The notes: generated by a model from the sequence alone, not told the origin. Counted from the first letter of the stretch, positions 1 to 11,035 are shown. The stretch: 64,000 nucleotides of DNA from Gemmatimonadota bacterium (GCA_039587355.1 JBDHIO010000002.1:95824-159823), one strand, 5' to 3'. Made by a program: numbers and translations.

Positions 1-906
1 ACCGGCGGCGGCGCCGGGTCGTTGCGCGCGCTCCAGGACGCACACAACGCCGGCGAGATGCGGTTCCGGATGTACTTCTTCCCGAACGGCGGTCTGTTCC
101 GTCAGCTGAACCAGGCGGGGATCCGCACCGGGTTCGGCGATGACTGGCTCCAGATCGGGGCCGTGAAGTACGGAGCCGACGGTTCGGCCTCCGAGCGAAC
201 CATGCGAATGAGCACCCCCTACGTCGGGCGACCGGACGATTACGGCATCCTCACGATGACGCAGGACGAGATCTACGAAGCCGTCGACGAGGCGCACAGC
301 TCCGGCTGGCAGATCGGGATCCATGCGAATGGCGACGTCACGATCGACATGGTCCTGAACGCGTACGAACGGGCCCTCGAGCGTTGGCCGCGCGACGACC
401 CCAGGCACCGGATCGAGCACTGCACGCTCGTCAATCCGAGCCTCGTGCAGCGCATCAAGTCTACGGGCTCAATCCCAACTCCCTTCTACACTTATGTATA
501 CTATCACGGAGACAAGTGGGGAGAGTATGGGGACGAGAAACTCGAGAGCATGTTCGCCCACAAGACGTTCCTCGATGCGGGCATCATGGTCGCCCCGGCG
601 TCGGACTACATGCCCGGTCCGTACGAGCCGATGATGGCCCTCCAGAGCATGGTCACGCGTACCGACTTCCGCGGGAAACAGTGGGGGCCGAACCAGCGCA
701 TTTCGATCGAACAGGCGCTCCGCATCTGCACCTATCACGGAGCGTACGCCTCGCACGAGGAGAACGTGAAAGGGACGATTACGGCCGGGAAGCTCGCGGA
801 CTTCGTGATCCTCGGGCAGGACCCGCACGTGGTCGACCCGAGCGTCCTGAAGGACATTCCGATCGTCCGGACCGTCGTCGGCGGCAAGACGATGTACGAG
901 GCCTGA
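1..906 (+). CDS. Amidohydrolase family protein (metal-dependent hydrolase, YtcJ-like), C-terminal part; 5' end lies outside the window
   Basis: Frame 1 is open from base 1 with no stop until TGA 904-906. The translation shows the conserved C-terminal amidohydrolase region (HANGD...IDM, RIEHCTL, GSIPTPF, GKLADFVIL). Confidence 0.75.
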   Translation, partial: TGGGAGSLRALQDAHNAGEMRFRMYFFPNGGLFRQLNQAGIRTGFGDDWLQIGAVKYGADGSASERTMRMSTPYVGRPDDYGILTMTQDEIYEAVDEAHSSGWQIGIHANGDVTIDMVLNAYERALERWPRDDPRHRIEHCTLVNPSLVQRIKSTGSIPTPFYTYVYYHGDKWGEYGDEKLESMFAHKTFLDAGIMVAPASDYMPGPYEPMMALQSMVTRTDFRGKQWGPNQRISIEQALRICTYHGAYASHEENVKGTITAGKLADFVILGQDPHVVDPSVLKDIPIVRTVVGGKTMYEA

Positions 907-1032
907 CGACTGGCGCGCCCCGACTCGTTCGAGCTGATTCGGGGGAGCCGCGGCGAGCTGATCGCGGTCGTCCTCGCGGGTGCCCTGCACGTCGTCACCG
1001 AGCTCTTCTTCTCGGAGGCCGTCGCCCTGTGG

Positions 1033-1581
1033 GTGAGCGCGGCCGTGTCGGTCGGCTTCCTCGTCTACCTGGTGGCCCGGGCGAAACGGCACCCGGGAAT
1101 GCTACGCGCCTGGGGGATGCGGTGGGACAACTTCGGCGAGACGATCGTCCCTCATCTGACCTTCGCCGCGATCGGTTCGGCGATCGTCCTGTGGATCGGG
1201 TCGACCGTCGGGACGATCGACTTTCCGAACACGTTCTGGCTCACGCTTTTGCTCTACCCGATCTGGGGCGCCGCCCAACAGTTCGCCCTCCAGAACCTGC
1301 TGGCCCGAAACGTCTACGCGTTCACATCCAACATCCTTCTGGTGTCGCTCGTGGCCGCGCTCCTGTTCGGCGCGTCGCACTACCCGCGACTGTGGCTCGT
1401 TGCGTTGACCGCCGGTGCCGGATTCCCCTTCACGATCATGTACCGCCGGTTCCCCAATCTCTGGGCGATCGGGATCGCGCACGGGATTCTGGGATCGTTC
1501 GCAGTCTACGCCGTACTGGGTGAGGATCCCGGCGCGGCGATCCTCTCGATGCTCTGGAAGTGGATCCAGGGAGGTGCATAG
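1033..1581 (+). CDS. CPBP (CAAX protease)-like integral membrane protein. The start is uncertain; it may extend upstream to about 910 with a non-canonical start.
   Basis: Polytopic hydrophobic protein with an FxxxH-like motif (FGASH) and a later HGILG. An ELFFSE segment resembling CPBP motif 1 lies in-frame upstream of the first GTG, where no ATG/GTG/TTG occurs between 907 and 1033. Confidence 0.4.
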   Translation: MSAAVSVGFLVYLVARAKRHPGMLRAWGMRWDNFGETIVPHLTFAAIGSAIVLWIGSTVGTIDFPNTFWLTLLLYPIWGAAQQFALQNLLARNVYAFTSNILLVSLVAALLFGASHYPRLWLVALTAGAGFPFTIMYRRFPNLWAIGIAHGILGSFAVYAVLGEDPGAAILSMLWKWIQGGA

Positions 1582-1584
1582 CCG

Positions 1585-2283
1585 ATGCGAGTAACGCGCC
1601 TTACCCGGGCCGAGAGCGTGCGCCGGGCCGTTGCGGAGGTATTCCTGATCGTTATCGGGATCCTGCTCGCCCTCGCCGCATCCGATTGGGCGGAGCAGCG
1701 ACAGGAGCGCGAGCGCGAGCGGGAGATCCTCGGCGAGATCCGCGAGGCGCTCGTCGAGGATGTCGCGGGCGTGGACAGCGTACTCGCGGTGAAGCGCCTA
1801 CAGCGCGATCGCGTCACATCCCTTCTCGCGCATATCGCCGGCGGCGGTGGGTACGCTGATTCACTGGACGCATCCTTCGGCGCGTCGTACGGGCTGCGAC
1901 CCGTGGCGTTGAATCGTGCCGCGTTCGAGTCCCTCAAGTCACAGGGGCTCGATCTCGTGTCCGATTCGGAGCTCCGATCCGCGATCGCGAGGGTGTACGA
2001 GAGGACGTACCCGAGTCTCGAGCAGGGCATGGAGCTCGAGCGAAACATCGTGCTCGCGGCGATGCGACCGCACTACCTCCGACGCTTCAGGGATCTCCGC
2101 TTCAACCAGAGCGCGACCCCCCTCGACTACGACGATCTCGTGCGCGACCAGGAGTACATAAACCTCCTCGATTACCGCAGGCAGAACCTCGTGCAGGCCG
2201 TGATCCCCTCGCACGAGGCCGCATCGCGCGAGATGTACCGCCTCATCGAACTGCTCGAACCGAATGCGGGCGGGAAGCGATGA
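1585..2283 (+). CDS. Hypothetical single-pass membrane protein, paralog 1 of a tandem family (N-terminal TM then soluble domain)
   Basis: ATG start. N-terminal hydrophobic helix (VFLIVIGILLALAA) followed by W-AEQRQERERE. It shares this N-terminal architecture and motif with the ORFs at 2840 and 3541. High GC3 codon usage. Confidence 0.55.
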   Translation: MRVTRLTRAESVRRAVAEVFLIVIGILLALAASDWAEQRQEREREREILGEIREALVEDVAGVDSVLAVKRLQRDRVTSLLAHIAGGGGYADSLDASFGASYGLRPVALNRAAFESLKSQGLDLVSDSELRSAIARVYERTYPSLEQGMELERNIVLAAMRPHYLRRFRDLRFNQSATPLDYDDLVRDQEYINLLDYRRQNLVQAVIPSHEAASREMYRLIELLEPNAGGKR

Positions 2284-2834
2284 TCGAACCCGCACCGCAG
2301 GTCCGGGCCGATCTCGATCTGCCCGATGTGACAGGGTTCATACTCGCGGGGAAGATCCTCTCGGCGATCGCGCTGCTGGTCGTCCTGGCGGTCCTCCTGA
2401 ACATCTGGCGGCGTGGCTCGTTTCCCGGAGTCTCGTACGGGAGCATCAAACTGTCGCACGGACGACTGCGCTGGCTGTGGACGTCGATCATCATCGGCGC
2501 GGTCGCTCTCGGCTCGGCCGAAGACCCGATCGCGCGCTTCGAAAACACGAGCGAAGACGAAGAGCTTCTCGCGGCCGCCGATTCGCGCAGGCAGACGAGC
2601 CTGGCGATCCCCCTGCCCTTCTATCGGTACGAGCGGCAGCGGATCTACGCCGATGACGAACTCGCGGTCGACAACACCTTCGAAGGATTCCTCATCCCGT
2701 GGGCCCTGCTGTCGGCGCTTCTCGCGTATCTCGTGCTCGTCGTAGGTTGGAACCCGGAGAGCCGACTGGCCCTGAGAGTCCTCCAGGGTCGTCGGCGGCG
2801 ACGCGATCGCCGGACCTTGCAGGAGCGGGACTGA
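2280..2834 (+). CDS. Hypothetical membrane protein (2-3 TM segments)
   Basis: ATGA overlap with the upstream gene. Hydrophobic segments ILSAIALLVVLAVLL, WTSIIIGAVALG and WALLSALLAYLVLVV. No family recognised. Confidence 0.4.
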   Translation: MIEPAPQVRADLDLPDVTGFILAGKILSAIALLVVLAVLLNIWRRGSFPGVSYGSIKLSHGRLRWLWTSIIIGAVALGSAEDPIARFENTSEDEELLAAADSRRQTSLAIPLPFYRYERQRIYADDELAVDNTFEGFLIPWALLSALLAYLVLVVGWNPESRLALRVLQGRRRRRDRRTLQERD

Positions 2835-2839
2835 CTCGC

Positions 2840-3544
2840 ATGGCCGACACGAAACCGACACGACTCCTCACGGAGGGGTTGGTCATCATCCTCAGCATCC
2901 TCGCCGCGTTCGCCATCGACGCCTGGTGGGACGACCGTCAGGAGAACGAGCGTGAGCGCGCGCTGCTATCCGGCATCCTCCAGGATCTTCGCGACTCGGA
3001 GAACGACCTGGAGCTCAAGACCATGCTCTCGGAATCCCTTCTGCAGCGGCAGGATGACGTCCTGAGCCGTCTCGTCGAGCAGCCCGAGGGCGCGACGATC
3101 TTCGTGTCGGTCTACCAGATCGGCTCGCTCGTGAGCGTGCCGACCTACGACGCAAACACCACGATTCTCGATGCGGCCGTCTCCTCCGGCGAATTGGAGC
3201 TGATCCGAAGCCGGAGGATCAAGAACGCCCTTTCCGCATGGCAGAGGGCGTATCGTGACAACAGGGAGGACGAAGAAGCGATCCGCGATCTGACCCATGT
3301 TCAACTTCTTCCCGTCCTGTCGGAGGCGGCCCGCATCGGGGACGTGTTTGACCGGATCACCACGCAAGGGTCTCCTCCCGAGCTGGACGACTCGCCCGCC
3401 CGTGAGATGACGGTCGATCGGCGGCTGGAAGGCCTGATGGGCCTGAGGCTCTTCTACCAGCAATTCGTAGCGGAATCCATGCGGGACCTGACGGAAAGGC
3501 AGCACGAGCTCATCGAGCTGATCGAAGCGGAGCTGGGATCGTGA
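2840..3544 (+). CDS. Hypothetical single-pass membrane protein, paralog 2 of the tandem family
   Basis: The ATG at 2840 gives MADTKPTRLLTEGLVIILSILAAFAIDAWWDDRQENERE. The longer ORF from 2699 has a non-membrane, Pro/Ser-rich N-terminal extension that I consider unlikely. Same TM + W..RQE.ERE juxtamembrane motif as paralog 1. Confidence 0.55.
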   Translation: MADTKPTRLLTEGLVIILSILAAFAIDAWWDDRQENERERALLSGILQDLRDSENDLELKTMLSESLLQRQDDVLSRLVEQPEGATIFVSVYQIGSLVSVPTYDANTTILDAAVSSGELELIRSRRIKNALSAWQRAYRDNREDEEAIRDLTHVQLLPVLSEAARIGDVFDRITTQGSPPELDDSPAREMTVDRRLEGLMGLRLFYQQFVAESMRDLTERQHELIELIEAELGS

Positions 3545-4152
3545 CCGGCCCGACGCGACGATCGGCCGGGCGGACGCTGACCGAGCTGGTCGTGATCTTC
3601 ATCGGCGTGAGCGCGGCGTTCTTCGTCGAGAACTACCGTGAGGATCGTCAGGAACTGCAGGAGCTCGACGAGGCGGTGGACGCCATCGTCTTCGAGCTGG
3701 GCCACTTCTCCGGTCGCACCGTCGTACACGCGGAGGCGATCGAAGACGGGATCGCGTCGTGGGAGGTATCTACGGCGGAAGGAGTGCGGCCGATGCCGGC
3801 CGACTACGTCATCCCCGGAGCGCTCCGACCGCCGACGCCTGCGTGGGAAACGACCGTGGCGTCCGGAACCGCGAACCGGATCGAGCCCACGTTGCTGATG
3901 GATCTGGGGTGGTTCTACAACGAGTTCGTCGGCGTACACGTGAACCATCAACGGCAGGTCGCGTTCAGCGAACGGGAGATCCAGCCTCGGGCGGAGCTCG
4001 GGGCCGACGCCTTCTACGGTCCCGACGGTCACCTCCTTCCGGAATTCCGGGTCCACATGCGTCACCAGGGGGTCTTCGCTGCAGACCTCCGACGGATGGC
4101 CCGGTGGGCCGATTCCCTCCGAACGGTACTCGCCGAGACCAGGGGCCGTTGA
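3541..4152 (+). CDS. Hypothetical single-pass membrane protein, paralog 3 of the tandem family
   Basis: ATGA overlap with paralog 2. N-terminus LTELVVIFIGVSAAFFVENYREDRQELQE repeats the family pattern. Confidence 0.55.
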   Translation: MTGPTRRSAGRTLTELVVIFIGVSAAFFVENYREDRQELQELDEAVDAIVFELGHFSGRTVVHAEAIEDGIASWEVSTAEGVRPMPADYVIPGALRPPTPAWETTVASGTANRIEPTLLMDLGWFYNEFVGVHVNHQRQVAFSEREIQPRAELGADAFYGPDGHLLPEFRVHMRHQGVFAADLRRMARWADSLRTVLAETRGR

Positions 4153-4189
4153 GCGCAGCGTCTCCCCCTCACCCGGTGTCCGGGTAGCC

Positions 4190-5575
4190 ATGCAGGACCT
4201 GACCGAGGGCTCGATTCCGCGACACATCGCGCAGCTGGCCATCCCGATCGCGATCGGGATGGTCTTTCAGACCCTGTACTATCTGGTCGATCTGTACTTC
4301 GTCGGCCAGATCAGCGAGACCGCGGTCGCGGGCCTGACCTCCGCCGGCAACATCCAGTTCATCATCATGGCGCTGACCCAGGTGCTGGGCGTCGGGACCA
4401 TGGCGCTCATCGCGCAGGCAAGCGGTCGAAAGGACCGCGAGGACGCGAACCTGATCTTCAACCAGAGTCTGCTCCTCGCCGCTGTCTGTGCCGCTCTCAC
4501 GCTCGCGGTCGGGTACGGGCTCGGCCGGTGGTACATGGCAACGCTCGCAGCCGACCAGGCGACGGTCGATGCGGGACTCACGTACCTGGACTGGTTCATC
4601 CCGGCGCTCGCGCTCCAGTTCGCGATGATCTCCATGGGGTCTGCTCTGCGCGGAACGGGCATCGTGAAGCCGACGATCATCGTGCAGGTGTCGACGGTGA
4701 TTTTGAACGCGATCCTCGCGCCGTTCATGATTGCTGGATGGGTGACGGGCAAGCCGCTCGGGATCATGGGAGCAGGCCTCTCGACGACGATCTCGGTGGC
4801 CGTCGCGGTCGTCCTGCTGACCTTCTATTTCGTGAAGCTCGAGCGTTTCGTCGTCTTCGACATCTCGATGCTCAGGCCTCGCCTCGACGCGTGGAAGCGG
4901 ATCCTCAAGGTGGGCCTCCCCCCCGGTGGCGAGTTCGCCCTGATGTTCGTGTACATGGCCGTGATCTACTGGGCGATCCGTGGCTTCGGCGCGGAGGCGC
5001 AGGCGGGGTTCGGGGTGGGCTCAAGGGTCATGCAGGCGATCTTCCTGCCGGCGATGGCGGTGGCGTTCGCGACGGCACCCGTAGCCGGACAGAACTTCGG
5101 CGCCGGACGGTTCGACCGCGTCCGGGGCACGCTCAAGTCGGCGTCGCTCGTCGGAAGCGCGATCATGCTGACCCTCACGTTGCTCTGTCAGGTGAGCCCG
5201 GAAGCGCTCGTGGGCTGGCTCACCGATGACCCCGCCGTGGTGACGATCGCCGCGGAGTTCTTGCAGATCATCTCGTGGAACTTCGTCGCGACCGGGCTGA
5301 TCTTCACGTTCTCGGGCGTCTTCCAGGCGCTCGGCAACACCGTTCCCGCGCTGATCGCCGGGGCGACCCGTCTGGCGACCTTCGCGATACCTGCGATCTG
5401 GATCTCCGGTCGACCGGGGTTCGAACTCCGCCATTTGTGGATGCTGTCCGTGGCCACGATCGTGATCCAGACCGCGGTCAGCTGGTGGCTCCTCCAGCTC
5501 GAGTTCCGCCGCAAGCTGGTCGACGACGGAGCGCCACCTTCCGACGTCGCGAGCGAGCCGCTGCCGACCGCGTAG
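4190..5575 (+). CDS. MATE family multidrug/oligosaccharide efflux transporter (NorM/DinF-like)
   Basis: 461 aa, about 12 TM segments. Typical MATE N-terminus (IPRHIAQLAIPIAIGMVFQTLYYLVDLYFVGQIS) and an internal duplication pattern. Confidence 0.85.
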   Translation: MQDLTEGSIPRHIAQLAIPIAIGMVFQTLYYLVDLYFVGQISETAVAGLTSAGNIQFIIMALTQVLGVGTMALIAQASGRKDREDANLIFNQSLLLAAVCAALTLAVGYGLGRWYMATLAADQATVDAGLTYLDWFIPALALQFAMISMGSALRGTGIVKPTIIVQVSTVILNAILAPFMIAGWVTGKPLGIMGAGLSTTISVAVAVVLLTFYFVKLERFVVFDISMLRPRLDAWKRILKVGLPPGGEFALMFVYMAVIYWAIRGFGAEAQAGFGVGSRVMQAIFLPAMAVAFATAPVAGQNFGAGRFDRVRGTLKSASLVGSAIMLTLTLLCQVSPEALVGWLTDDPAVVTIAAEFLQIISWNFVATGLIFTFSGVFQALGNTVPALIAGATRLATFAIPAIWISGRPGFELRHLWMLSVATIVIQTAVSWWLLQLEFRRKLVDDGAPPSDVASEPLPTA

Positions 5576-5640
5576 ATTCCCCGCATGGGCCCGCCGCCAG
5601 TACGGCGCGACCGCCACCGACCACAGAGAAGGACCGAGGC

Positions 5641-6030
5641 ATGACTGAGCTCATGGTCCCGGTGTCACCGGGCGAGTTGCTCGACAAGATCACGATTCTC
5701 GAAATCAAGTCGGAGCGGATCGACGACCCGGAGAAGGTCGCGAACGTCGCCCGCGAGCTCGAGCTGCTGAGCCGGGTCTGGAGCGAGGGCGTGACGGAGG
5801 ACGGCACCGTCGCCGGCGTGCGTTCCCGGCTCAAAGCGATCAACGAGGACCTCTGGGAGATCGAGGACGAGATCCGGGAGGAGGAGGCGCGCGGCGAGTT
5901 CGGATCGCGCTTCATCGAGCTGGCGCGGGCGGTGTACGTCACGAACGATCGACGCGCCGCCGCGAAGCGGGAGGTCAACCTCCACCTCGGCTCGAGCATT
6001 CTCGAAGAGAAGTCGTACAAGGGCGGATGA
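5641..6030 (+). CDS. Small conserved hypothetical protein (about 130 aa; resembles small DUF-type proteins beginning MxxLxVPVSxGELLDKITILEIK)
   Basis: ATG at 5641, charged coiled-coil-like composition and coding-like GC3. The longer ORF from 5275 overlaps the MATE 3' end in another frame and is unlikely. Confidence 0.5.
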   Translation: MTELMVPVSPGELLDKITILEIKSERIDDPEKVANVARELELLSRVWSEGVTEDGTVAGVRSRLKAINEDLWEIEDEIREEEARGEFGSRFIELARAVYVTNDRRAAAKREVNLHLGSSILEEKSYKGG

Positions 6031-6070
6031 CGGGCTTTCCCATGCGTCCGGGCCCGGCGGTTCCGTCGCC

Positions 6071-6799
6071 ATGACCGACGATCGTCGCTTCAGCGAGGTG
6101 GAGGTCGGCGAGATCCTGCGCAGGGCCACCGAGCCCCGGACGACCGGCGACCTGACCCGAACACGTCCGGGCCGCGGCCTGACGCTCGAGGAGGTGCAGG
6201 AGATCGCGGCGGAAGCCGCGATCGATCCGGATCGGGTCGGCGAAGCCGCGCGCGCGCTGAGCCGCACGGTACCATCCTCGCGGCTCGACGCATTCGTCGG
6301 TTCGCCGACGAGCGTTCGCTTCGAGATCGAGCATGACGGCGATCTCGACGAGGACGGACGGACCGAACTCGTGCGGTTGATCCGCGCATCCCTCGGGCGC
6401 CAGGGAGTAGTCGGAGGGCGCGGAGCCGACCTGGAATGGATGGACCAGGACGGCTACGGCAGCCGCAACGTCAACGTCTATCGCACGGCGGCCGGAACGC
6501 GCGTGGAGATGCTGGGCAGTTTCCGGGAGGCCGGTGCGGGGGCTGCGGGGGTCGCGGGCGTGACGGGCGTGGTGGGGGCGATCGCCGTCTCGGCCGCGGT
6601 CCCGGCGGGACCTGCAGGACTGCTGCTCGTCCCGGTCGCGATGGCGGCGATGTACGCCGTCCCGAGACTCACCATCGGAGCGGCGGTCAGACGCGAGACC
6701 CGGGCGTTGGCCGAGCTCCGCGACCGGATCCGAGATCTCCTCAATGCTCGCGAGGCCCGAAGCGAATCGGGTCGTCAAATCGAAACGGAGGACGGGTGA
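6071..6799 (+). CDS. Hypothetical protein with a Gly/Ala-rich C-terminal membrane segment
   Basis: ATG start 40 nt after the previous gene, and a GTGA overlap with the next gene. C-terminal hydrophobic stretch GVTGVVGAIAVSAAVPAGPAGLLLVPVAMAAMYAV. Confidence 0.45.
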   Translation: MTDDRRFSEVEVGEILRRATEPRTTGDLTRTRPGRGLTLEEVQEIAAEAAIDPDRVGEAARALSRTVPSSRLDAFVGSPTSVRFEIEHDGDLDEDGRTELVRLIRASLGRQGVVGGRGADLEWMDQDGYGSRNVNVYRTAAGTRVEMLGSFREAGAGAAGVAGVTGVVGAIAVSAAVPAGPAGLLLVPVAMAAMYAVPRLTIGAAVRRETRALAELRDRIRDLLNAREARSESGRQIETEDG

Positions 6800-7905
6800 G
6801 GTACACTCGGCGCAGATTCGTTCAGACCTCGGCGCTGGCCGGCGCGGCCGTGGGCCTCGGGGCATGTACGCCCGCGGGAGACGACGCGGCCGGTGAGGGC
6901 TCGAGCGATCCCCTCCGCATTCTGATCCTGGGGGGAACGGGTTGGCTGGGGCCGAACCAGGTGCATACGGCCGTGGCTCGCGGGCATGAGGTCACCCTGT
7001 TCAACCGGGGCCAACGGAATCCGGACATGTTCCCGGAGCTCGAGACCCTCATCGGGGACCGCGATGATGACCTCGAGGCGCTGCGCGGCCGCTCGTGGGA
7101 CGTCGCGATCGACAACTCGGCGACGCTCCCCCGCTGGGTGCGCCAGTCCATCGAGGTGCTGGGCGACTCCGTCGCCGCCTACGTGTTCGTCTCCTCGGTC
7201 GGGGTCTACCTGCCGTACGAGACCGCCCCGCTAGCCGAGGACGGGCCGATCGGGACGATTGACGATCCGGCGACCGAGGAGGTGAACGGGGCGACCTACG
7301 GGGCCCTGAAGGCGCTTTCGGAACAGGTGGCCCGCGAGGCCTACCCGGACACGCACCAGGTCGTCCGTCCGGGGTACATCATCGGACCCGAGGATCCGAC
7401 CGACCGCTTCACGTACTGGCCCGCGCGGCTCGCCCGCGGCGGCGACGTGCTCGCGCCCGGCGCGCCCTCGGACCCGATCCAGCAGATCGATGTTCGTGAT
7501 CTCGCCACGTTCATGATCGATCTGGTCGAGCAGCGCGCCTCCGGGACGTTCAACGCCGTTGGCCCGCAGGAGCCCACGACGATGGGCCCCTTCCTCGAGG
7601 ATGTCGGGGTCGCCGTCGGTTCGGACGCAACGCTGGAGTGGGTCGATGCCGATTTCCTGGAGGAGAACCGCGCCCCGTTCATCACATACTGGACAGCCCC
7701 GAGAGGCGAGTACCTCGGGATGCACCAGATCGACGGGTCGAAGGCGTTCGCGCACGGGCTGCGGACGCGGCCGATCGGCGAGACCGCGCGGGACACGCTC
7801 GACTGGTGGAACACGCTCGATGAAGAGCGACGCTCACAGCTCCGCAGCGGGCTCTCGGCGGAACGCGAAGCAGAGCTTCTGACGGCTTTCCGGGCGACAC
7901 GATGA
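6796..7905 (+). CDS. NAD(P)-dependent epimerase/dehydratase (SDR/NmrA-like) with a Tat signal peptide
   Basis: GTG start overlapping the previous stop. N-terminus RRRFVQTSALAGAAVGLGA is a twin-arginine signal. Then ILILGGTGWLG (Rossmann GxxGxxG) and a YxxxK-like region (YGALK). Confidence 0.7.
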   Translation: MRYTRRRFVQTSALAGAAVGLGACTPAGDDAAGEGSSDPLRILILGGTGWLGPNQVHTAVARGHEVTLFNRGQRNPDMFPELETLIGDRDDDLEALRGRSWDVAIDNSATLPRWVRQSIEVLGDSVAAYVFVSSVGVYLPYETAPLAEDGPIGTIDDPATEEVNGATYGALKALSEQVAREAYPDTHQVVRPGYIIGPEDPTDRFTYWPARLARGGDVLAPGAPSDPIQQIDVRDLATFMIDLVEQRASGTFNAVGPQEPTTMGPFLEDVGVAVGSDATLEWVDADFLEENRAPFITYWTAPRGEYLGMHQIDGSKAFAHGLRTRPIGETARDTLDWWNTLDEERRSQLRSGLSAEREAELLTAFRATR

Positions 7906-8252
7906 CGGCGCCGATCAAGGACCCGATCACGATCGACGACCTGGAGAAGCTCGACATCCGGGTCGGGACGATCGTCGCGGTCGGAGACGTCCCCGACTCC
8001 AACAAGCTCGTGAAGCTCACCGTGGATTTCGGGGACCACACGCGGCAGATCCTCGCCGGCATGAAGGGCGAGCGCGATGATCCCTCGGAGATCGAGGGCC
8101 GGCAGAGTCTGTTCGTCGTGAACATGGCGCCACGGAAGATGGCCGGAGAGATGTCCGAGGGGATGCTCTTCGACATCGGATACGAGGATGGGATCCGTCC
8201 GGTGCTGGCCGTGCCCGAGGAGCCGGTACCAAACGGCGTGCGGCTGGGGTGA
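7902..8252 (+). CDS. csaA: tRNA-binding protein (CsaA/EMAP-type OB-fold domain)
   Basis: 116 aa. IDDLEKLDIRVGTIVAV...KLVKLTVDFGD...RQILAGM matches the tRNA-binding (Myf) domain found in CsaA and the MetRS C-terminus. ATGA overlap with the upstream gene. Confidence 0.7.
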   Translation: MTAPIKDPITIDDLEKLDIRVGTIVAVGDVPDSNKLVKLTVDFGDHTRQILAGMKGERDDPSEIEGRQSLFVVNMAPRKMAGEMSEGMLFDIGYEDGIRPVLAVPEEPVPNGVRLG

Positions 8253-8896
8253 CGGCCCGACCGGACCTCACGACCTCCGCACACGCTCTCGCCCTGATCG
8301 CGATAGCGTGTGCCTGTCTGGCAGCGCCGGCCGCGGCTCAGGCACCGCGCGCGTGCGATGCGTCCGGCTGGGCCGCGCTCGTGCTGAAGCACGTCGAACG
8401 GTACCCGCGGCTCGAGGCACCCGACGTCTACAAGCTCCTGCATCAGGCGACGATGGGAAGCGAGCACCACGCCGCCGACCGAGACATGGCCGCGGACTGG
8501 CTCACCCGTGAGATCGCGGGTCTCGGCGCGGGCCCCGCGGAGCCGCTGATCGACCCTCTGGGCGGGGCGGAAGAAACCGTCCGCATCCATCTGCGCACGT
8601 TCCTCGCGCGCGGGGGCGACCCGAAGCAACTCCTGGACGCCTTCATCGGCACGGCGACCGCCGTCGCCCCACGACCGGACGTCCTCGAATGTGCCCTCGA
8701 GGCGGCGGCGGGTCTCACGGTGTCGAGTGATCTGCCGCTCGAGACGGACGAGTTCGAGACGTACGTGGCCGAACGTCGGGCGGCCGGTTTCGAGGCCGTC
8801 CATCACAGCGACGCCTTCGGGCGGCTCTACCGTCCCGCCTACCGGGTCGTCGCCCGCGAGCTGGTTCCCGAAGCCCTGGTCGGCCTGCGGCGCTGA
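8249..8896 (+). CDS. Hypothetical secreted protein
   Basis: GTGA/ATGA-type overlap with csaA. N-terminal signal peptide (ALALIAIACACLAAPAAAQA). No family recognised. Confidence 0.45.
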   Translation: MTARPDLTTSAHALALIAIACACLAAPAAAQAPRACDASGWAALVLKHVERYPRLEAPDVYKLLHQATMGSEHHAADRDMAADWLTREIAGLGAGPAEPLIDPLGGAEETVRIHLRTFLARGGDPKQLLDAFIGTATAVAPRPDVLECALEAAAGLTVSSDLPLETDEFETYVAERRAAGFEAVHHSDAFGRLYRPAYRVVARELVPEALVGLRR

Positions 8897-8956
8897 CCCC
8901 CCCGCGATCGGCGGCCGTCGGGTTGCCCGGCAGGTCGGGCGATCCCAACGTCTGTC

Positions 8957-11035
8957 ATGACGATCAAGAGATTCGGCGCCCTCCCCCTCGCCACCGCGCT
9001 TGTCGCGCTGCCCGCATGCGTCCCCGGCGAAGTGCCGGTCGCGGACCCGTGTCTCGAGCCGGCGAACGAGATCGTCGCGGAGAACTGTCTCAGCGGTAGC
9101 CCCTCGACGGAGTGGGACATCAACGGGTGGGGCGACCCGAGCATTCAGGGCTTCGGCCACGACATGAGTATCGCGGCCGGAGAGACGGTCGACTTCCGGA
9201 TTCTCACCGACTCCGACGATTACCGGATCGACGTATACCGGATGGGCTACTACGGGGGCATGGGAGCCCGCCGCGTAGACACGATCGAGCCGTCAGCCTC
9301 CCTCCCGCAGGATCAACCGGACTGCCTGACCGACCCCGAGACGCGTCTATTCGACTGCGGAAACTGGGAGGTATCCGCGTCGTGGCAGGTGCCGGACGAT
9401 GCCACGTCCGGCATCTACTTCGCTCGCCTCGTGCGAGAGGATCCCGCGCCCCCGGGCATGTGGCGCAACGACCGCTTCGAGCCGTCTTCCCTCCCACGGG
9501 GCTCGCTGAACGACCCCGAGTGGTACCGGACCCGGCCGGTGATGGCCAACGCGCTGGTAGAGCCGCGGGCGAGCCACATCTACTTCATCGTGCGCGACGA
9601 CGAGGGTGGGTCGGACCTGCTCTTTCAAACGTCGGACATGACCTGGCAGGCCTACAACCGGTACGGCGGGCACAGCGTGTATGGCCGGCTGAACCCGGAG
9701 CGGCCCCGAGCCCACGGCGGCCCACCCAGGGCCTACAAGGTCAGCTACAACAGACCGTTCGAGACGCGGGACTACCGGGCGGTGAACATCGTGTTCAACT
9801 CGGAATACCCGATGGTTCGCTGGCTCGAACGAAACGGCTACGACGTCAGCTATACCACCGGCATCGACACGCACCGGCGGGGCGATGAGATCCTCGAGCA
9901 CCGCGTCTTTCTGTCGGTCGGGCACGACGAGTACTGGTCGGGCAGCCAGCGCCGCAACGTCGAGGCCGCGCGGGCCGCGGGCGTAAGCCTCGCGTTCTTC
10001 TCAGGCAACGAGGTGTACTGGAAGACCCGCTGGGAAGACAGCATCGATCCGTCGGGCACCCCCTTCAGAACGCTCGTCACGTACAAGGAGACCCAGGACG
10101 ACGCGAAGATCGATCCCCTCGAGGATGTCTGGACGGGGACGTTCGCCGACGGTCGGCCGATCAACCCGGAGGGGGCGTGGCCGGAGAACGCTCTGACCGG
10201 GACGCTCTTCGCCGTGAACGCCTGGCGAAACGACCCGCTGATCGTCCCGGCCGAATACGGGGGCCTCCGGTTCTGGAGGGGCACCCGGGTCGCCGGGCTC
10301 GCAGAGGGCGAACGCGCCGTGCTCCTCAAGGGACTGCTCGGGCACGAGTGGGACTCGGACGTCGACAACGGGCACCGGCCGCCGGGCCTGTTCCGGCTAT
10401 CCGAAACCACGGTCGACAACGTCCTCGCCTGCTTCTACTACGGCTCGACGTGCGATTCCGGGACCGCCACGCATCACCTCGTCATGTATCGGCACGAGAG
10501 CGGCGCGCTGGTGTTCGGATCGGGCACCGTCCAGTGGCCCTGGGGACTCGACGCGCACCACGATACCGGGACGGGCGTGCCTCCCGAGCGGGCGAACGGC
10601 TGGAACACGCGGGTCGGCGTCGATCCGCACGGACCGGACGCGACGATTCAGCAGGCCACCGTGAACCTGTTCGCGGACATGGGCGTTCAGCCCACTACCC
10701 TCGAGCCGCATCTCCTGCTCGCCGTGGCCTCGACCGACGAGACGGCCCCGGCCACTACGCTGCTTACACCGGTGGACGGCGAGACGATCTCGGGTGTCGT
10801 TCGGATCTCCGGAACGGCCCGGGATGCCGGAGGGGGCGTCGTCGCGGGGGTGGAGGTATCGCTCGACGGAGGCGAGACCTGGCACCCCGCGACGGGGCGC
10901 GAAGAATGGACGCTCGAGTGGCCCCCCTTGGCCGGCGGAGCGCTGACGATCATCGGCCGCGCAGTCGACGACAGCGGGAACATCGGTCCGGGGAGCGCGC
11001 CGATCACGGTTACCGTTCGAGGAGGTGGGGCTTGA
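8957..11035 (+). CDS. Large secreted protein, N,N-dimethylformamidase large(beta)-subunit-like family with a C-terminal Ig-like domain (function unknown)
   Basis: 692 aa with a signal peptide. Motifs GHDEYWS and LLGHEWDSD are as I recall them from DMFase large-subunit homologs. C-terminal beta-rich Ig-like region. The product assignment is from memory of the family and is not certain. Confidence 0.55.
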   Translation: MTIKRFGALPLATALVALPACVPGEVPVADPCLEPANEIVAENCLSGSPSTEWDINGWGDPSIQGFGHDMSIAAGETVDFRILTDSDDYRIDVYRMGYYGGMGARRVDTIEPSASLPQDQPDCLTDPETRLFDCGNWEVSASWQVPDDATSGIYFARLVREDPAPPGMWRNDRFEPSSLPRGSLNDPEWYRTRPVMANALVEPRASHIYFIVRDDEGGSDLLFQTSDMTWQAYNRYGGHSVYGRLNPERPRAHGGPPRAYKVSYNRPFETRDYRAVNIVFNSEYPMVRWLERNGYDVSYTTGIDTHRRGDEILEHRVFLSVGHDEYWSGSQRRNVEAARAAGVSLAFFSGNEVYWKTRWEDSIDPSGTPFRTLVTYKETQDDAKIDPLEDVWTGTFADGRPINPEGAWPENALTGTLFAVNAWRNDPLIVPAEYGGLRFWRGTRVAGLAEGERAVLLKGLLGHEWDSDVDNGHRPPGLFRLSETTVDNVLACFYYGSTCDSGTATHHLVMYRHESGALVFGSGTVQWPWGLDAHHDTGTGVPPERANGWNTRVGVDPHGPDATIQQATVNLFADMGVQPTTLEPHLLLAVASTDETAPATTLLTPVDGETISGVVRISGTARDAGGGVVAGVEVSLDGGETWHPATGREEWTLEWPPLAGGALTIIGRAVDDSGNIGPGSAPITVTVRGGGA

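What the first reader, a model, noticed from the sequence alone, without database searches (positions are those of the whole stretch)
1585..5575. Tandem array of three paralogous single-pass membrane proteins (plus an unrelated 3-TM protein) coupled to a MATE exporter
ORFs 1585-2283, 2840-3544 and 3541-4152 each begin with a short cytoplasmic stretch and one TM helix, then an aromatic residue and an acidic RQE-rich juxtamembrane motif: W-AEQRQERERE, W-WDDRQENERE, Y-REDRQELQE. Each then has a 170-200 aa, largely alpha-helical periplasmic domain. The sequence has diverged but the architecture is conserved, which is typical of old tandem duplication. They are chained by 4-nt overlaps (2280-2283, 3541-3544). 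A 184-aa 3-TM protein is interleaved, and a MATE transporter follows 38 nt downstream. I cannot assign the family. The arrangement looks like a dedicated membrane module, for example sensor or anti-sigma-like or adaptor subunits for the exporter.
Basis: seen in the sequence. Interest (0 to 1): 0.6.

Follow-up and report, generated by a model that had tools for sequence, protein, structure and literature searches.

The report
Three paralogous membrane-anchored helical-bundle proteins
Three neighbouring genes encode anciently diverged copies of a very large, uncharacterised bacterial family (Pfam DUF6090) of inner-membrane-anchored periplasmic four-helix bundles, and their position next to a MATE exporter gene is local gene order, not a conserved partnership.

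Summary
A (1585-2283) and C (2840-3544) are clear homologues, with hhalign probability 99.4% and E 3.6e-11 even without the TM region. D (3541-4152) is a remote member. Its support is a C-D profile match, the same predicted helix order, and a D-type gene inside a 13-gene array of the family in Rubrivirga.

The family can be assigned. A passes the Pfam DUF6090 threshold. An A+C profile finds 24,861 cluster representatives, nearly all stand-alone proteins of about 230 aa. Predicted architecture: a 14-aa cytoplasmic tail, one TM helix, and a periplasmic up-down four-helix bundle.

The MATE link fails. It appears only in two close relatives where the whole 15-kb block is syntenic. Of 39 other D-type loci with enough downstream sequence, one has a MATE gene, and that one is such a relative. 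Large arrays elsewhere have no MATE, CPBP or B gene.

One new point emerged. The TM "head" is the most conserved part and resembles the heads of other paralogues in the same genome. The ectodomains form old subfamilies shared across phyla. I infer TM-mediated docking or oligomerisation, with ectodomains giving specificity.

Function is unknown. This is a new member of a catalogued family, of modest interest.

The parts
1585..2283 (+). Paralogue A: DUF6090-family protein, 232 aa. Cytoplasmic tail 1-13, TM about 14-36, acidic juxtamembrane helix 37-50, periplasmic four-helix bundle to 224.
2840..3544 (+). Paralogue C: DUF6090-superfamily protein, 234 aa, same architecture. It falls below the Pfam threshold itself.
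   Evidence: hhalign against the A family gives 99.4%, E 9e-22, and E 3.6e-11 without the TM region. The A-family HMM hits it at E 1e-10. Three of 24 C-family members touch PF19578.
3541..4152 (+). Paralogue D: remote member of a distinct, well-conserved subfamily, 203 aa. It has the same TM head and the same helix order.
2280..2834 (+). B: unrelated membrane protein of 184 aa with 2-3 hydrophobic segments, interleaved in the array. It is a neighbour, not a family member.
   Evidence: No Pfam, NCBIfam, PADLOC or PHROG match. The A, C and D profiles do not hit it. Homologues were found only in the close relatives L006-L009 and L022.
1033..1581 (+). CPBP/Rce1-like intramembrane protease gene, 3 nt upstream of A. 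It is context conserved in close relatives only.
   Evidence: PF02517 gives 28.6 bits against a cut-off of 22.4. It is 85% identical in L006 and L008. No copy was detected at any other family locus: phmmer with the window's CPBP protein found it only in L006-L009 and L022, and Pfam scans of selected flanking ORFs showed none. CPBP proteins are divergent, so a single-sequence search could miss a remote one.
4190..5575 (+). MATE-family efflux transporter gene, 37 nt downstream of D. It is a neighbour, and no conserved link to the family was found.
   Evidence: PF01554 E 5.5e-44 and TIGR00797 208.6 bits. Linkage to D-type genes is seen in 1 of 39 informative metagenomic loci.

Best explanation
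A, C and D are three anciently diverged paralogues of the DUF6090 superfamily. Each is a type-II (N-in) single-pass inner-membrane protein. A strongly conserved TM helix continues into the first helix of a periplasmic up-down four-helix bundle.

The proteins are modular. The "head" is the short basic tail, the TM helix and the charged juxtamembrane turn. The TM helix carries an acidic residue at its cytoplasmic end, a small-xxx-small motif (G25/A29 in A) and a polar residue plus Trp/Tyr at its periplasmic end. I infer that this head is a helix-packing module. Through it, the paralogues either associate with one another or dock on a common membrane partner. The ectodomain gives each paralogue its own periplasmic ligand or target.

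They are not accessory subunits of the neighbouring MATE pump. The array sits in a conserved syntenic block of one Gemmatimonadota clade, in which A/C-type copies come and go.

Shown here: the paralogy, the family assignment, the predicted topology and fold, the lack of conserved MATE linkage, arrays as a family trait, and the head/ectodomain mosaic.

Inferred: TM-mediated association, ligand or target binding by the bundle, and any physiological role.

The confidence of 0.55 is a composite: about 0.9 for the identity statements and about 0.35-0.4 for the docking or oligomerisation mechanism.
For: Family.
- PF19578 is above threshold for A.
- The A+C profile finds 24,861 cluster representatives at E<=1e-3. 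The top 150 are all stand-alone proteins of about 180-300 aa, apart from one kinase-fragment fusion.
- Sixteen of 61 sampled hits match DUF6090, and none matches any other Pfam family.

Paralogy.

Topology.
- In 269 members the N-tail averages 14 aa with net charge +2.25.
- The 15 residues after the TM have net charge -1.3.
- The charge difference points N-in in 95% of members. Only 3% have a second hydrophobic segment.

Fold.
- The AF2 pLDDT is 93.9 and 89.7, with the same helix order in both models.

The head is the functional core.
- Conservation is 0.69 in the TM helix, against about 0.3 in most of the ectodomain.
- E18, G25, A29 and W35 are near-invariant.

Arrays.
- Rubrivirga has 13 consecutive genes. 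All 12 junctions checked are ATGA overlaps.
- Robiginitomaculum has 7 and 5 copies, and another Gemmatimonadota locus has 4.

Mosaic.
- Head identity is 68-76% within arrays, against 15-18% for ectodomains.
- The window A ectodomain is 40-41% identical to single members of the Rubrivirga and Robiginitomaculum arrays. The D ectodomain is 34% identical to the Rubrivirga D-type copy. The heads of those pairs are only 18-25% identical.
- Within the window the heads are 32-46% identical, while the ectodomains barely align.
- Third-codon positions show this is selection, not recent gene conversion.

No MATE link.
Against: - No experiment or paper exists for the family.
- The fold match is generic. 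De novo designed bundles score highest, so it says little about function.
- TM segments have low complexity, so identity comparisons between heads are noisy.
- No partner gene was found in any neighbourhood, which leaves the docking idea untested.
- D's homology beyond the TM region is marginal at the sequence level.
- CPBP-B-D-MATE is conserved in three genomes. Those genomes are too close (80-94% identical neighbours) to tell function from descent, so a clade-specific functional link cannot be strictly excluded.
Confidence: 0.55

Rival explanations
1. One reading: the three proteins, with B, are sensor, anti-sigma or adaptor subunits dedicated to the downstream MATE exporter and co-transcribed with it.
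For: The genes are tightly packed on one strand with gaps of 37 nt or less, and no terminator-like site lies between them. B-D-MATE adjacency is conserved in L006 and L008.
Against: - L006 and L008 are close relatives that are collinear over about 15 kb.
- Only 1 of 39 informative D-type loci has a MATE gene, and it is such a relative.
- Distant D homologues (L010, L012) are single genes next to unrelated genes.
- The arrays in three other genomes lack a MATE gene.
- Four-nt overlaps are generic in this lineage.
- Only about 14 residues are cytoplasmic, so no anti-sigma domain is possible.
- There is no HlyD/MFP domain.
- MATE pumps are known to work as single polypeptides (established knowledge).
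Confidence: 0.05
2. The proteins are substrates or partners of the upstream CPBP (Rce1-like) intramembrane protease. The protease would cleave or bind the conserved TM head and so release or regulate the periplasmic bundle. CPBP-B-D would be the functional unit.
For: The CPBP stop codon lies 3 nt before the start of A. CPBP-B-D order is kept in L006 and L008, with 4-nt overlaps in L006. The head is unusually conserved for a simple anchor. CPBP proteases act within or near membranes (established knowledge).
Against: The link is seen only in the one closely related clade. phmmer with the window's CPBP protein found no copy at any other A-, C- or D-type locus or at the large arrays, although CPBP proteins are divergent and a single-sequence search could miss one. 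Pfam scans of array flanks show no PF02517.
Confidence: 0.1
3. They are accessory membrane regulators of signalling proteins, of the YycH/YycI type. They would dock by their TM helix on Ser/Thr kinases or other sensors and modulate them according to what the periplasmic bundle binds.
For: - A-type genes lie next to Pkinase+Tricorn/PD40 kinases in L001 (4-nt overlap, kinases on both sides) and in L105.
- P0058 in L005 is a kinase-fragment::DUF6090 fusion.
- The bundle has the topology of chemoreceptor and kinase sensor domains but no transmitter.
- YycH and YycI are single-pass accessory proteins of WalK (PMC7355866, PMC5013275).
Against: - No kinase of that type was detected anywhere in the 64-kb window (phmmer with the L001 kinase).
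- None was detected in the other A-type loci or at the large arrays.
- These kinases may simply be numerous in Gemmatimonadota genomes (my own expectation, not tested here), which would make adjacency by chance plausible.
- The P0058 fusion lacks the TM head and looks like a deletion product.
Confidence: 0.12
4. They are immunity or other conflict-system proteins. The arrays would be diversified periplasmic immunity genes against envelope-targeting toxins or phages.
For: The family forms tandem arrays of highly diverged paralogues. Some A-type copies lie in islands with integrase, IS and Prim-Pol genes. D and C evolve faster (57-67% identity) than their neighbours (80-94%).
Against: - Ectodomain subfamilies are conserved across phyla at 34-41% identity, so they are not fast-evolving.
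- D-type genes usually sit singly among housekeeping genes such as RecN-like and LpxA genes.
- No toxin, secretion or defence gene lies nearby.
- There are no meaningful PADLOC or PHROG hits.
- No relatives were found on plasmids or viral contigs.
Confidence: 0.08
5. D is not a true homologue of A and C. It is an unrelated single-pass helical protein that shares only a similar TM anchor, so the array holds two paralogues, not three.
For: Without the TM and juxtamembrane region, A-D is not significant and C-D reaches only E 3.5e-4 at 37% probability. No D-family member was seen to match PF19578 (for D itself). Four-helix bundles arise easily by convergence.
Against: - The full-length C-D profile alignment spans 198 columns at 95.5%.
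- An S-G-x-L/A-x-L/R-I ... L-R/M motif is shared at the start of helix 3 (alignments).
- The order of secondary-structure elements is identical.
- A Rubrivirga protein with a D-type ectodomain (E 2e-35) carries the same head as its 12 A/C-type neighbours and sits in the middle of their array.
Confidence: 0.15

Closest known systems
Pfam DUF6090 (PF19578), family of unknown function
   Same: A matches above the gathering score over model positions 1-174 of 182. The length (about 230 aa) and the N-terminal TM plus helical domain are the same. Sampled relatives of A and C match only this family.
   Different: C and D do not reach the Pfam threshold. The superfamily reached with an A+C profile (24,861 cluster representatives) appears wider than the current Pfam model, which matched only 16 of 61 sampled members. 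No function is attached to the family, and no paper mentions it.
Four-helix-bundle periplasmic sensor domains of chemoreceptors and sensor kinases (Tar/Tsr and PilJ ligand-binding domains, 4HB type)
   Different: There is no second TM helix and no cytoplasmic signalling domain. There is no sequence match to any 4HB Pfam family. De novo designed bundles score higher, so the resemblance is generic.
YycH/YycI, single-pass accessory regulators of the WalK kinase in Firmicutes (PMC7355866, PMC5013275)
   Same: They are paralogous N-terminally anchored extracytoplasmic proteins encoded side by side. They act on a partner in the membrane and not through a cytoplasmic domain of their own. This is an analogy for how A, C and D could work.
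   Different: The fold is different and there is no sequence relation. YycH and YycI are always encoded with their kinase. Here no partner gene is conserved.
Minor pilin / pseudopilin gene clusters (type IV pili, type II secretion)
   Same: They are tandem, often overlapping genes for paralogues. A conserved N-terminal hydrophobic helix with an acidic residue mediates assembly, and the periplasmic domains have diverged. The logic of the Rubrivirga and Robiginitomaculum arrays is similar.
   Different: There is no prepilin-peptidase site: no Gly at -1 and no Glu at +5 in register (sequence). The domain is all-helical, not an alpha-beta pilin fold. No pilus or secretion genes lie nearby.

Membership tests
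DUF6090 (PF19578) | Match to the Pfam HMM at or above the gathering score: protein A | tested here: met
   29.6 bits against a cut-off of 23.5, E 7.3e-7, residues 18-195 on model positions 1-174 of 182.
DUF6090 (PF19578) | Match to the Pfam HMM at or above the gathering score: proteins C and D | tested here: not met
   No PF19578 hit for C or D at E<=1. Only 3 of 24 C-family members reach E<=0.01. They are placed in the superfamily by profile-profile evidence only.
DUF6090 superfamily (as delimited here) | Profile-profile homology to the A family beyond the TM helix | tested here: inconclusive
   C is met: E 9e-22 full length and 3.6e-11 when trimmed. D gives C-D E 1.6e-8 full length but 3.5e-4 when trimmed, and A-D is not significant when trimmed. 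D is supported indirectly by array membership in Rubrivirga.
DUF6090 superfamily (as delimited here) | Architecture: short basic N-tail, a single conserved TM helix ([ED]-x6-[GS]-x3-[GA]-x5-[WY] register), and an all-helical C-terminal domain of about 170-200 aa | tested here: met
   Hydropathy, charge bias in 269 members, conservation profile, head alignment, and AF2 models.
Anti-sigma factors (ZAS/RskA/FecR-type) | A cytoplasmic anti-sigma domain N-terminal to the TM helix, and an adjacent ECF sigma gene | tested here: not met
   Only 10-17 residues precede the TM helix. There is no anti-sigma or sigma-70 Pfam hit in A-D or in the neighbours scanned.
Periplasmic adaptor (membrane fusion, HlyD-type) proteins of efflux pumps | HlyD/biotin-lipoyl/beta-barrel domains, and conserved pairing with the pump gene | tested here: not met
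   No such Pfam or NCBIfam hits. The models are all-helical. Pump linkage is not conserved.
4HB chemoreceptor/sensor-kinase ligand-binding domain | A periplasmic up-down four-helix bundle flanked by two TM helices and followed by a cytoplasmic transmitter | tested here: not met
   The bundle topology is present. However, a second hydrophobic segment occurs in only 3% of members and there is no cytoplasmic domain. There is no 4HB Pfam match.
MATE efflux transporter (the neighbour at 4190-5575) | Two MatE repeats, with a match to PF01554 / TIGR00797 | tested here: met
   PF01554 E 5.5e-44 in 2 stretches. TIGR00797 gives 208.6 bits against a cut-off of 147.4.
Known anti-phage defence systems (PADLOC) | Match to any PADLOC model | tested here: not met
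   The only hit is a spurious 13-bit match to GajB for A. There is nothing for B, C or D.

The most novel reading that the evidence does not exclude
DUF6090 proteins may form a previously unrecognised modular envelope system. A lineage-homogenised TM "head" with a GxxxG-like packing motif and a conserved acidic residue would assemble many different ancient ectodomain "cassettes". These are encoded in translationally coupled arrays of up to 13 or more genes. The products would form one hetero-oligomeric periplasmic complex, or would plug into one shared membrane machine. On this reading A, C and D are three subunits or adaptors of such an apparatus in Gemmatimonadota. The evidence leaves this open: head/ectodomain mosaic, ATGA-chained arrays across three phyla, and no partner found.
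Probability: 0.2. Interest if true: 0.65.

Novelty: new member of a known kind. Interest (0 to 1): 0.3.

Why it matters
For this window the result is mostly a clarification. The unassignable triplet belongs to a catalogued domain-of-unknown-function family, and the attractive exporter-module story does not survive a synteny survey.

The wider value lies in the family. It is very large, with about 25,000 clusters at 50% identity, and occurs at least in Gemmatimonadota, Rhodothermales and Proteobacteria. It is entirely unstudied.

It also shows an unusual evolutionary pattern. The TM anchor is more conserved than the soluble domain. The anchor resembles those of paralogues in the same genome or lineage more than those of orthologues in other phyla. 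Ectodomain subfamilies are shared across phyla. Gene arrays are chained by start/stop overlaps.

That pattern gives a concrete, testable hypothesis for an orphan family: TM-mediated assembly or docking. It also suggests that the Pfam model under-covers the family.

Tried and rejected
- Anti-sigma and HlyD-adaptor readings. Rejected on architecture and the absence of the domains.
- Defence or phage origin. There are no meaningful PADLOC or PHROG hits, no viral structural match, and no relatives in viral contigs or plasmids.
- Relatives with solved structures, by sequence. None were found.
- Prepilin-like signal. The acidic residue is not in register with a Gly(-1)/Glu(+5) site.
- Tat signal. 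A twin arginine occurs in the MILRR-type heads, but it is separated from the hydrophobic stretch and is not conserved in the A family.
- Recent gene conversion as the cause of head similarity. Third-codon positions are near chance in the window, and far less conserved than positions 1+2 in Robiginitomaculum.
- A conserved partner gene around D-type loci. Only housekeeping neighbours recur: a RecN-like gene in 17 loci and LpxA in 9.
- Promoter and terminator scan. Uninformative.
- tRNA and Rfam scans of the window. Nothing found.
- Foldseek against AFDB. The library was unavailable.
- First attempt at a genome scan with the broad A1 alignment. It failed for lack of a conserved stretch and was redone with A4.
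- Literature searches for DUF6090 and PF19578. Zero papers.

Full report
**What is in the sequence.** On the + strand the genes run as follows.

| Gene | Coordinates | Junction |
|---|---|---|
| CPBP/Rce1-like | 1033-1581 | stop 3 nt before A |
| A | 1585-2283 | overlaps B by ATGA (2280-2283) |
| B | 2280-2834 | 5-nt gap to C |
| C | 2840-3544 | overlaps D by GTGA (3541-3544) |
| D | 3541-4152 | 37-nt gap to MATE |
| MATE | 4190-5575 | followed by a DUF6165 gene at 5641-6030 |

A, C and D each have one N-terminal hydrophobic segment. B has two strong hydrophobic segments and one weaker one. Homologues that cover 99-100% of A and C support the long start codons.

**Are the three proteins paralogues?** A and C certainly are.
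- BLASTP gives E 7e-8 over the full length.
- An HMM of A's homologues hits C at E 1e-10.
- hhalign of the two family alignments gives 99.4% probability, E 9e-22.
- It still gives E 3.6e-11 after the TM helix and acidic motif are cut away.

D is a remote member.
- C-D aligns over 198 columns at 95.5%, E 1.6e-8, and A-D at 83%.
- Without the TM region, C-D drops to E 3.5e-4 and A-D to noise.

Three independent results rescue D.
- AlphaFold models of A (pLDDT 93.9) and D (89.7) have the same order of elements. A long TM-plus-stalk helix is followed by a short broken helix, a long helix, a small hairpin or loop, and a long C-terminal helix.
- In Rubrivirga, a gene with a D-type ectodomain (E 2e-35 to the D profile) sits in the middle of an array of A/C-type genes and carries the same N-terminal head as they do.

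I put D's membership at about 0.85.

**Which family.**
- A passes the Pfam gathering score for DUF6090 (PF19578). C and D do not.
- An exhaustive HMMER search with an A+C profile finds 24,861 representatives of 50%-identity clusters at E<=1e-3, and 14,576 at 1e-10.
- The best 150 are all stand-alone proteins of about 180-300 aa matched end to end. The one exception is a kinase-fragment fusion.
- Of 61 sampled hits, 16 match DUF6090 and none matches anything else.
- No paper in the library mentions the family.
- There is no relative with a solved structure by sequence.
- There is no meaningful PADLOC, PHROG or NCBIfam match.

**Architecture.**
- In 269 members the N-terminal tail averages 14 residues with net charge +2.25.
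- The 15 residues after the TM helix have net charge -1.3.
- The charge difference points N-in in 95% of members. Only 3% have a second hydrophobic stretch.
- The C-terminal 170-200 residues are therefore predicted to be periplasmic. They fold as an up-down four-helix bundle continuous with the TM helix.
- This is the layout of a chemoreceptor-type sensor domain, but with no second TM helix and no cytoplasmic output.

**The MATE link.**
- Two metagenomic relatives, L006 and L008, share the order amidohydrolase - CPBP - B - D - MATE - DUF6165 - ... - tRNA-binding protein.
- They are close relatives. MATE is 80% identical, CPBP 85%, and the amidohydrolase 87-94%. The whole block is collinear, so this is conservation by descent.
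- Even there the paralogue content differs. L006 lacks A. L008 lacks C and has a different family member right after the amidohydrolase.
- In 80 further D-type loci from metagenomes, 76 carry a single copy. The only locus with MATE, CPBP or B is the same contig as L009, a close relative.
- Thirty-nine of these loci have at least 1 kb downstream, which is enough to see a MATE gene.
- Recurrent neighbours of D-type genes are housekeeping genes: a RecN-like gene in 17 loci and LpxA in 9.
- Distant D homologues, including one in Woeseiaceae, are single genes in unrelated contexts.
- A- and C-type homologues sit next to Ser/Thr kinases, MacB/FtsX permeases, IS/integrase islands, glyoxalases and methyltransferases, and never next to MATE.
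- Four-nt overlaps are the normal junction in this lineage. In L006 they make up 11 of 19 junctions, including junctions between an epimerase, a tRNA-binding protein, an acetyltransferase and an amidase. The same is seen in the window at 7902-7905 and 8249-8252.

**What turned up instead.** Tandem arrays are a trait of the family.
- A complete Rubrivirga genome (locus L018) has 13 consecutive same-strand genes of the family. All 12 junctions checked are ATGA overlaps.
- Two Robiginitomaculum assemblies have 7 and 5 copies. Another Gemmatimonadota contig has 4.
- The flanks of these arrays are unrelated housekeeping genes.

Within these arrays the first 40 residues are 68-76% identical among paralogues, and 55% identical between the two phyla. 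The consensus is MILRRIxQHVRDQNWTAVxIDFxIVVVGVFxGIQ. The remaining roughly 200 residues are only 15-18% identical.

The ectodomains are nevertheless old orthologous subfamilies.
- The window A ectodomain is 40-41% identical to one Rubrivirga and one Robiginitomaculum array member.
- The window D ectodomain is 34% identical to the Rubrivirga D-type copy.
- The heads of these cross-phylum pairs are only 18-25% identical.
- Inside the window the heads of A, C and D are 32-46% identical, although their ectodomains barely align.

Third-codon positions argue for selection on the protein and not for recent gene conversion. They are 55% identical, against 85% at positions 1+2, in Robiginitomaculum. 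In the window they are near chance.

Across 61 diverse members the TM helix is the most conserved segment, at 0.69 against about 0.3 for most of the ectodomain. Near-invariant positions are an acidic residue at the cytoplasmic end (E18 in A), a small-xxx-small pair (G25 and A29) and an interfacial Trp (W35). A second conserved patch lies at 112-140 (G121, L130, R131). From the helix order this patch should lie near the membrane, but that placement is an inference.

**How it most likely works.**
- Shown: identity, topology, fold class, modular conservation, and the absence of a conserved partner gene or MATE link.
- Inferred: the head is a helix-packing module. Small-xxx-small motifs are classic TM association motifs (established knowledge). 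The paralogues of one genome would use it either to assemble with each other or to dock on one shared membrane component. Assembly with each other would fit the translational coupling in the arrays. Each ectodomain subfamily would contribute its own periplasmic binding specificity.
- My confidence in this modular docking or oligomerisation picture is about 0.35-0.4. My confidence in the identity statements is about 0.9.

Rivals, with my estimates:
- CPBP substrate or partner module: 0.1.
- YycH/YycI-like accessory regulators of Ser/Thr kinases or other sensors: 0.12. These kinases flank one A-type gene, face another convergently, and a kinase fragment is fused to a third.
- Immunity or conflict proteins: 0.08.
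- MATE accessory subunits: 0.05.
- D as a convergent non-member: 0.15. This is a separate question and is not exclusive with the others.

**Comparison with what is known, and novelty.** This is a new member (A), plus two sub-threshold relatives (C and D), of a catalogued family of unknown function. Nothing in the window itself is unusual for that family. The array is small, and its neighbours are explained by local synteny. Hence the modest interest score of 0.3.

The family-level pattern is unreported, as far as the searchable literature shows. It consists of a lineage-homogenised head, ancient ectodomain cassettes, and overlap-chained arrays in at least three phyla. It is the most novel reading left open, with probability about 0.2 that it reflects a new kind of envelope assembly.

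**Limits.**
- No structure coordinates were available for superposition or surface mapping.
- The AFDB fold libraries were unavailable.
- Neighbour detection in raw loci used single-sequence phmmer for MATE, CPBP and B, plus Pfam scans of selected ORFs. A very divergent partner could have been missed.
- Many metagenomic loci are short.

Noticed in passing
L018 (Rubrivirga sp. IMCC45206, NZ_CP177357) 6-9692: Thirteen consecutive same-strand genes of the family. All 12 junctions checked are ATGA overlaps. One gene has a D-type ectodomain (2759-3460). Two genes (3457-4329 and 4326-5126) have an extra Pro-rich N-terminal extension of about 30 aa. The array runs off the left end of the locus, so it may be longer.
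   Followed up: partly
L016 72-6544 and L015 4582-10151 (Robiginitomaculum MAGs); L018: A nearly invariant 40-residue N-terminus (MILRRVIKHFRNQEWTAIFLDFLIVVVGVFVGLQVQNWN) is shared by paralogues whose remaining sequence is about 15% identical. It is 55% identical between an alphaproteobacterium and a member of the Rhodothermales. This suggests either horizontal spread of arrays or a common partner.
   Followed up: partly
L001 3326-9717; L105 5001-8583; L005 6001-7044 (P0058): A-type genes are flanked by, or convergent with, large Ser/Thr kinases (Pkinase + Tricorn/PD40 propeller). One 347-aa ORF fuses a kinase fragment to a DUF6090 ectodomain that lacks its TM head. It looks like a deletion product of a kinase-DUF6090 gene pair.
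   Followed up: partly
L002/L003 and L102/L103: Some A-type copies lie in islands with a tyrosine integrase, Prim-Pol/PriCT, and IS110, IS1595 and rve transposases. Part of the family therefore travels with mobile DNA in Gemmatimonadota.
   Followed up: no
window 5641-6030, and L006 9077-9481, L008 9027-9407: A DUF6165 gene (PF19662, E 3.5e-10) follows the MATE gene in the window and in both close relatives. It is another uncharacterised family, and its function was not examined.
   Followed up: no
window 1585 and 2840 against database proteins P0001 and P0068: Public gene calls for A and C start 11 and 13 codons downstream of the starts supported by homologue coverage. For C this removes the first residues of the TM helix, so it looks like a start-codon mis-call in the source annotation.
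   Followed up: partly
window 906-1033 against L006 3900-5093 and L008 3600-5526: Both close relatives carry a 397-399-aa gene without Pfam hits between the amidohydrolase and the CPBP gene. L008 also carries a 244-aa family member there. The window has neither, so this spot of the syntenic block is an indel hotspot.
   Followed up: no
L006 whole locus; window 7902-7905 and 8249-8252: Four-nt start/stop overlaps join 11 of 19 gene junctions in L006, and also join unrelated genes in the window. In this lineage they are a genome style, not a sign of functional coupling.
   Followed up: yes
protein P0256 (family member from the exhaustive search): One source names this 244-aa family member 'alpha-D-ribose 1-methylphosphonate 5-triphosphate synthase subunit PhnH'. 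Other members of the same cluster are named 'hypothetical protein'. This is probably an annotation error.
   Followed up: no
L005 2547-5686 and 7596-10558; L017 2990-5653: PadR regulator plus MacB_PCD/FtsX permease pairs surround the A-type gene in L005, and one such permease lies near the A-type gene in L017. These may belong to an expanded gene family in the phylum (my own expectation, not tested), so the adjacency may be chance.
   Followed up: no
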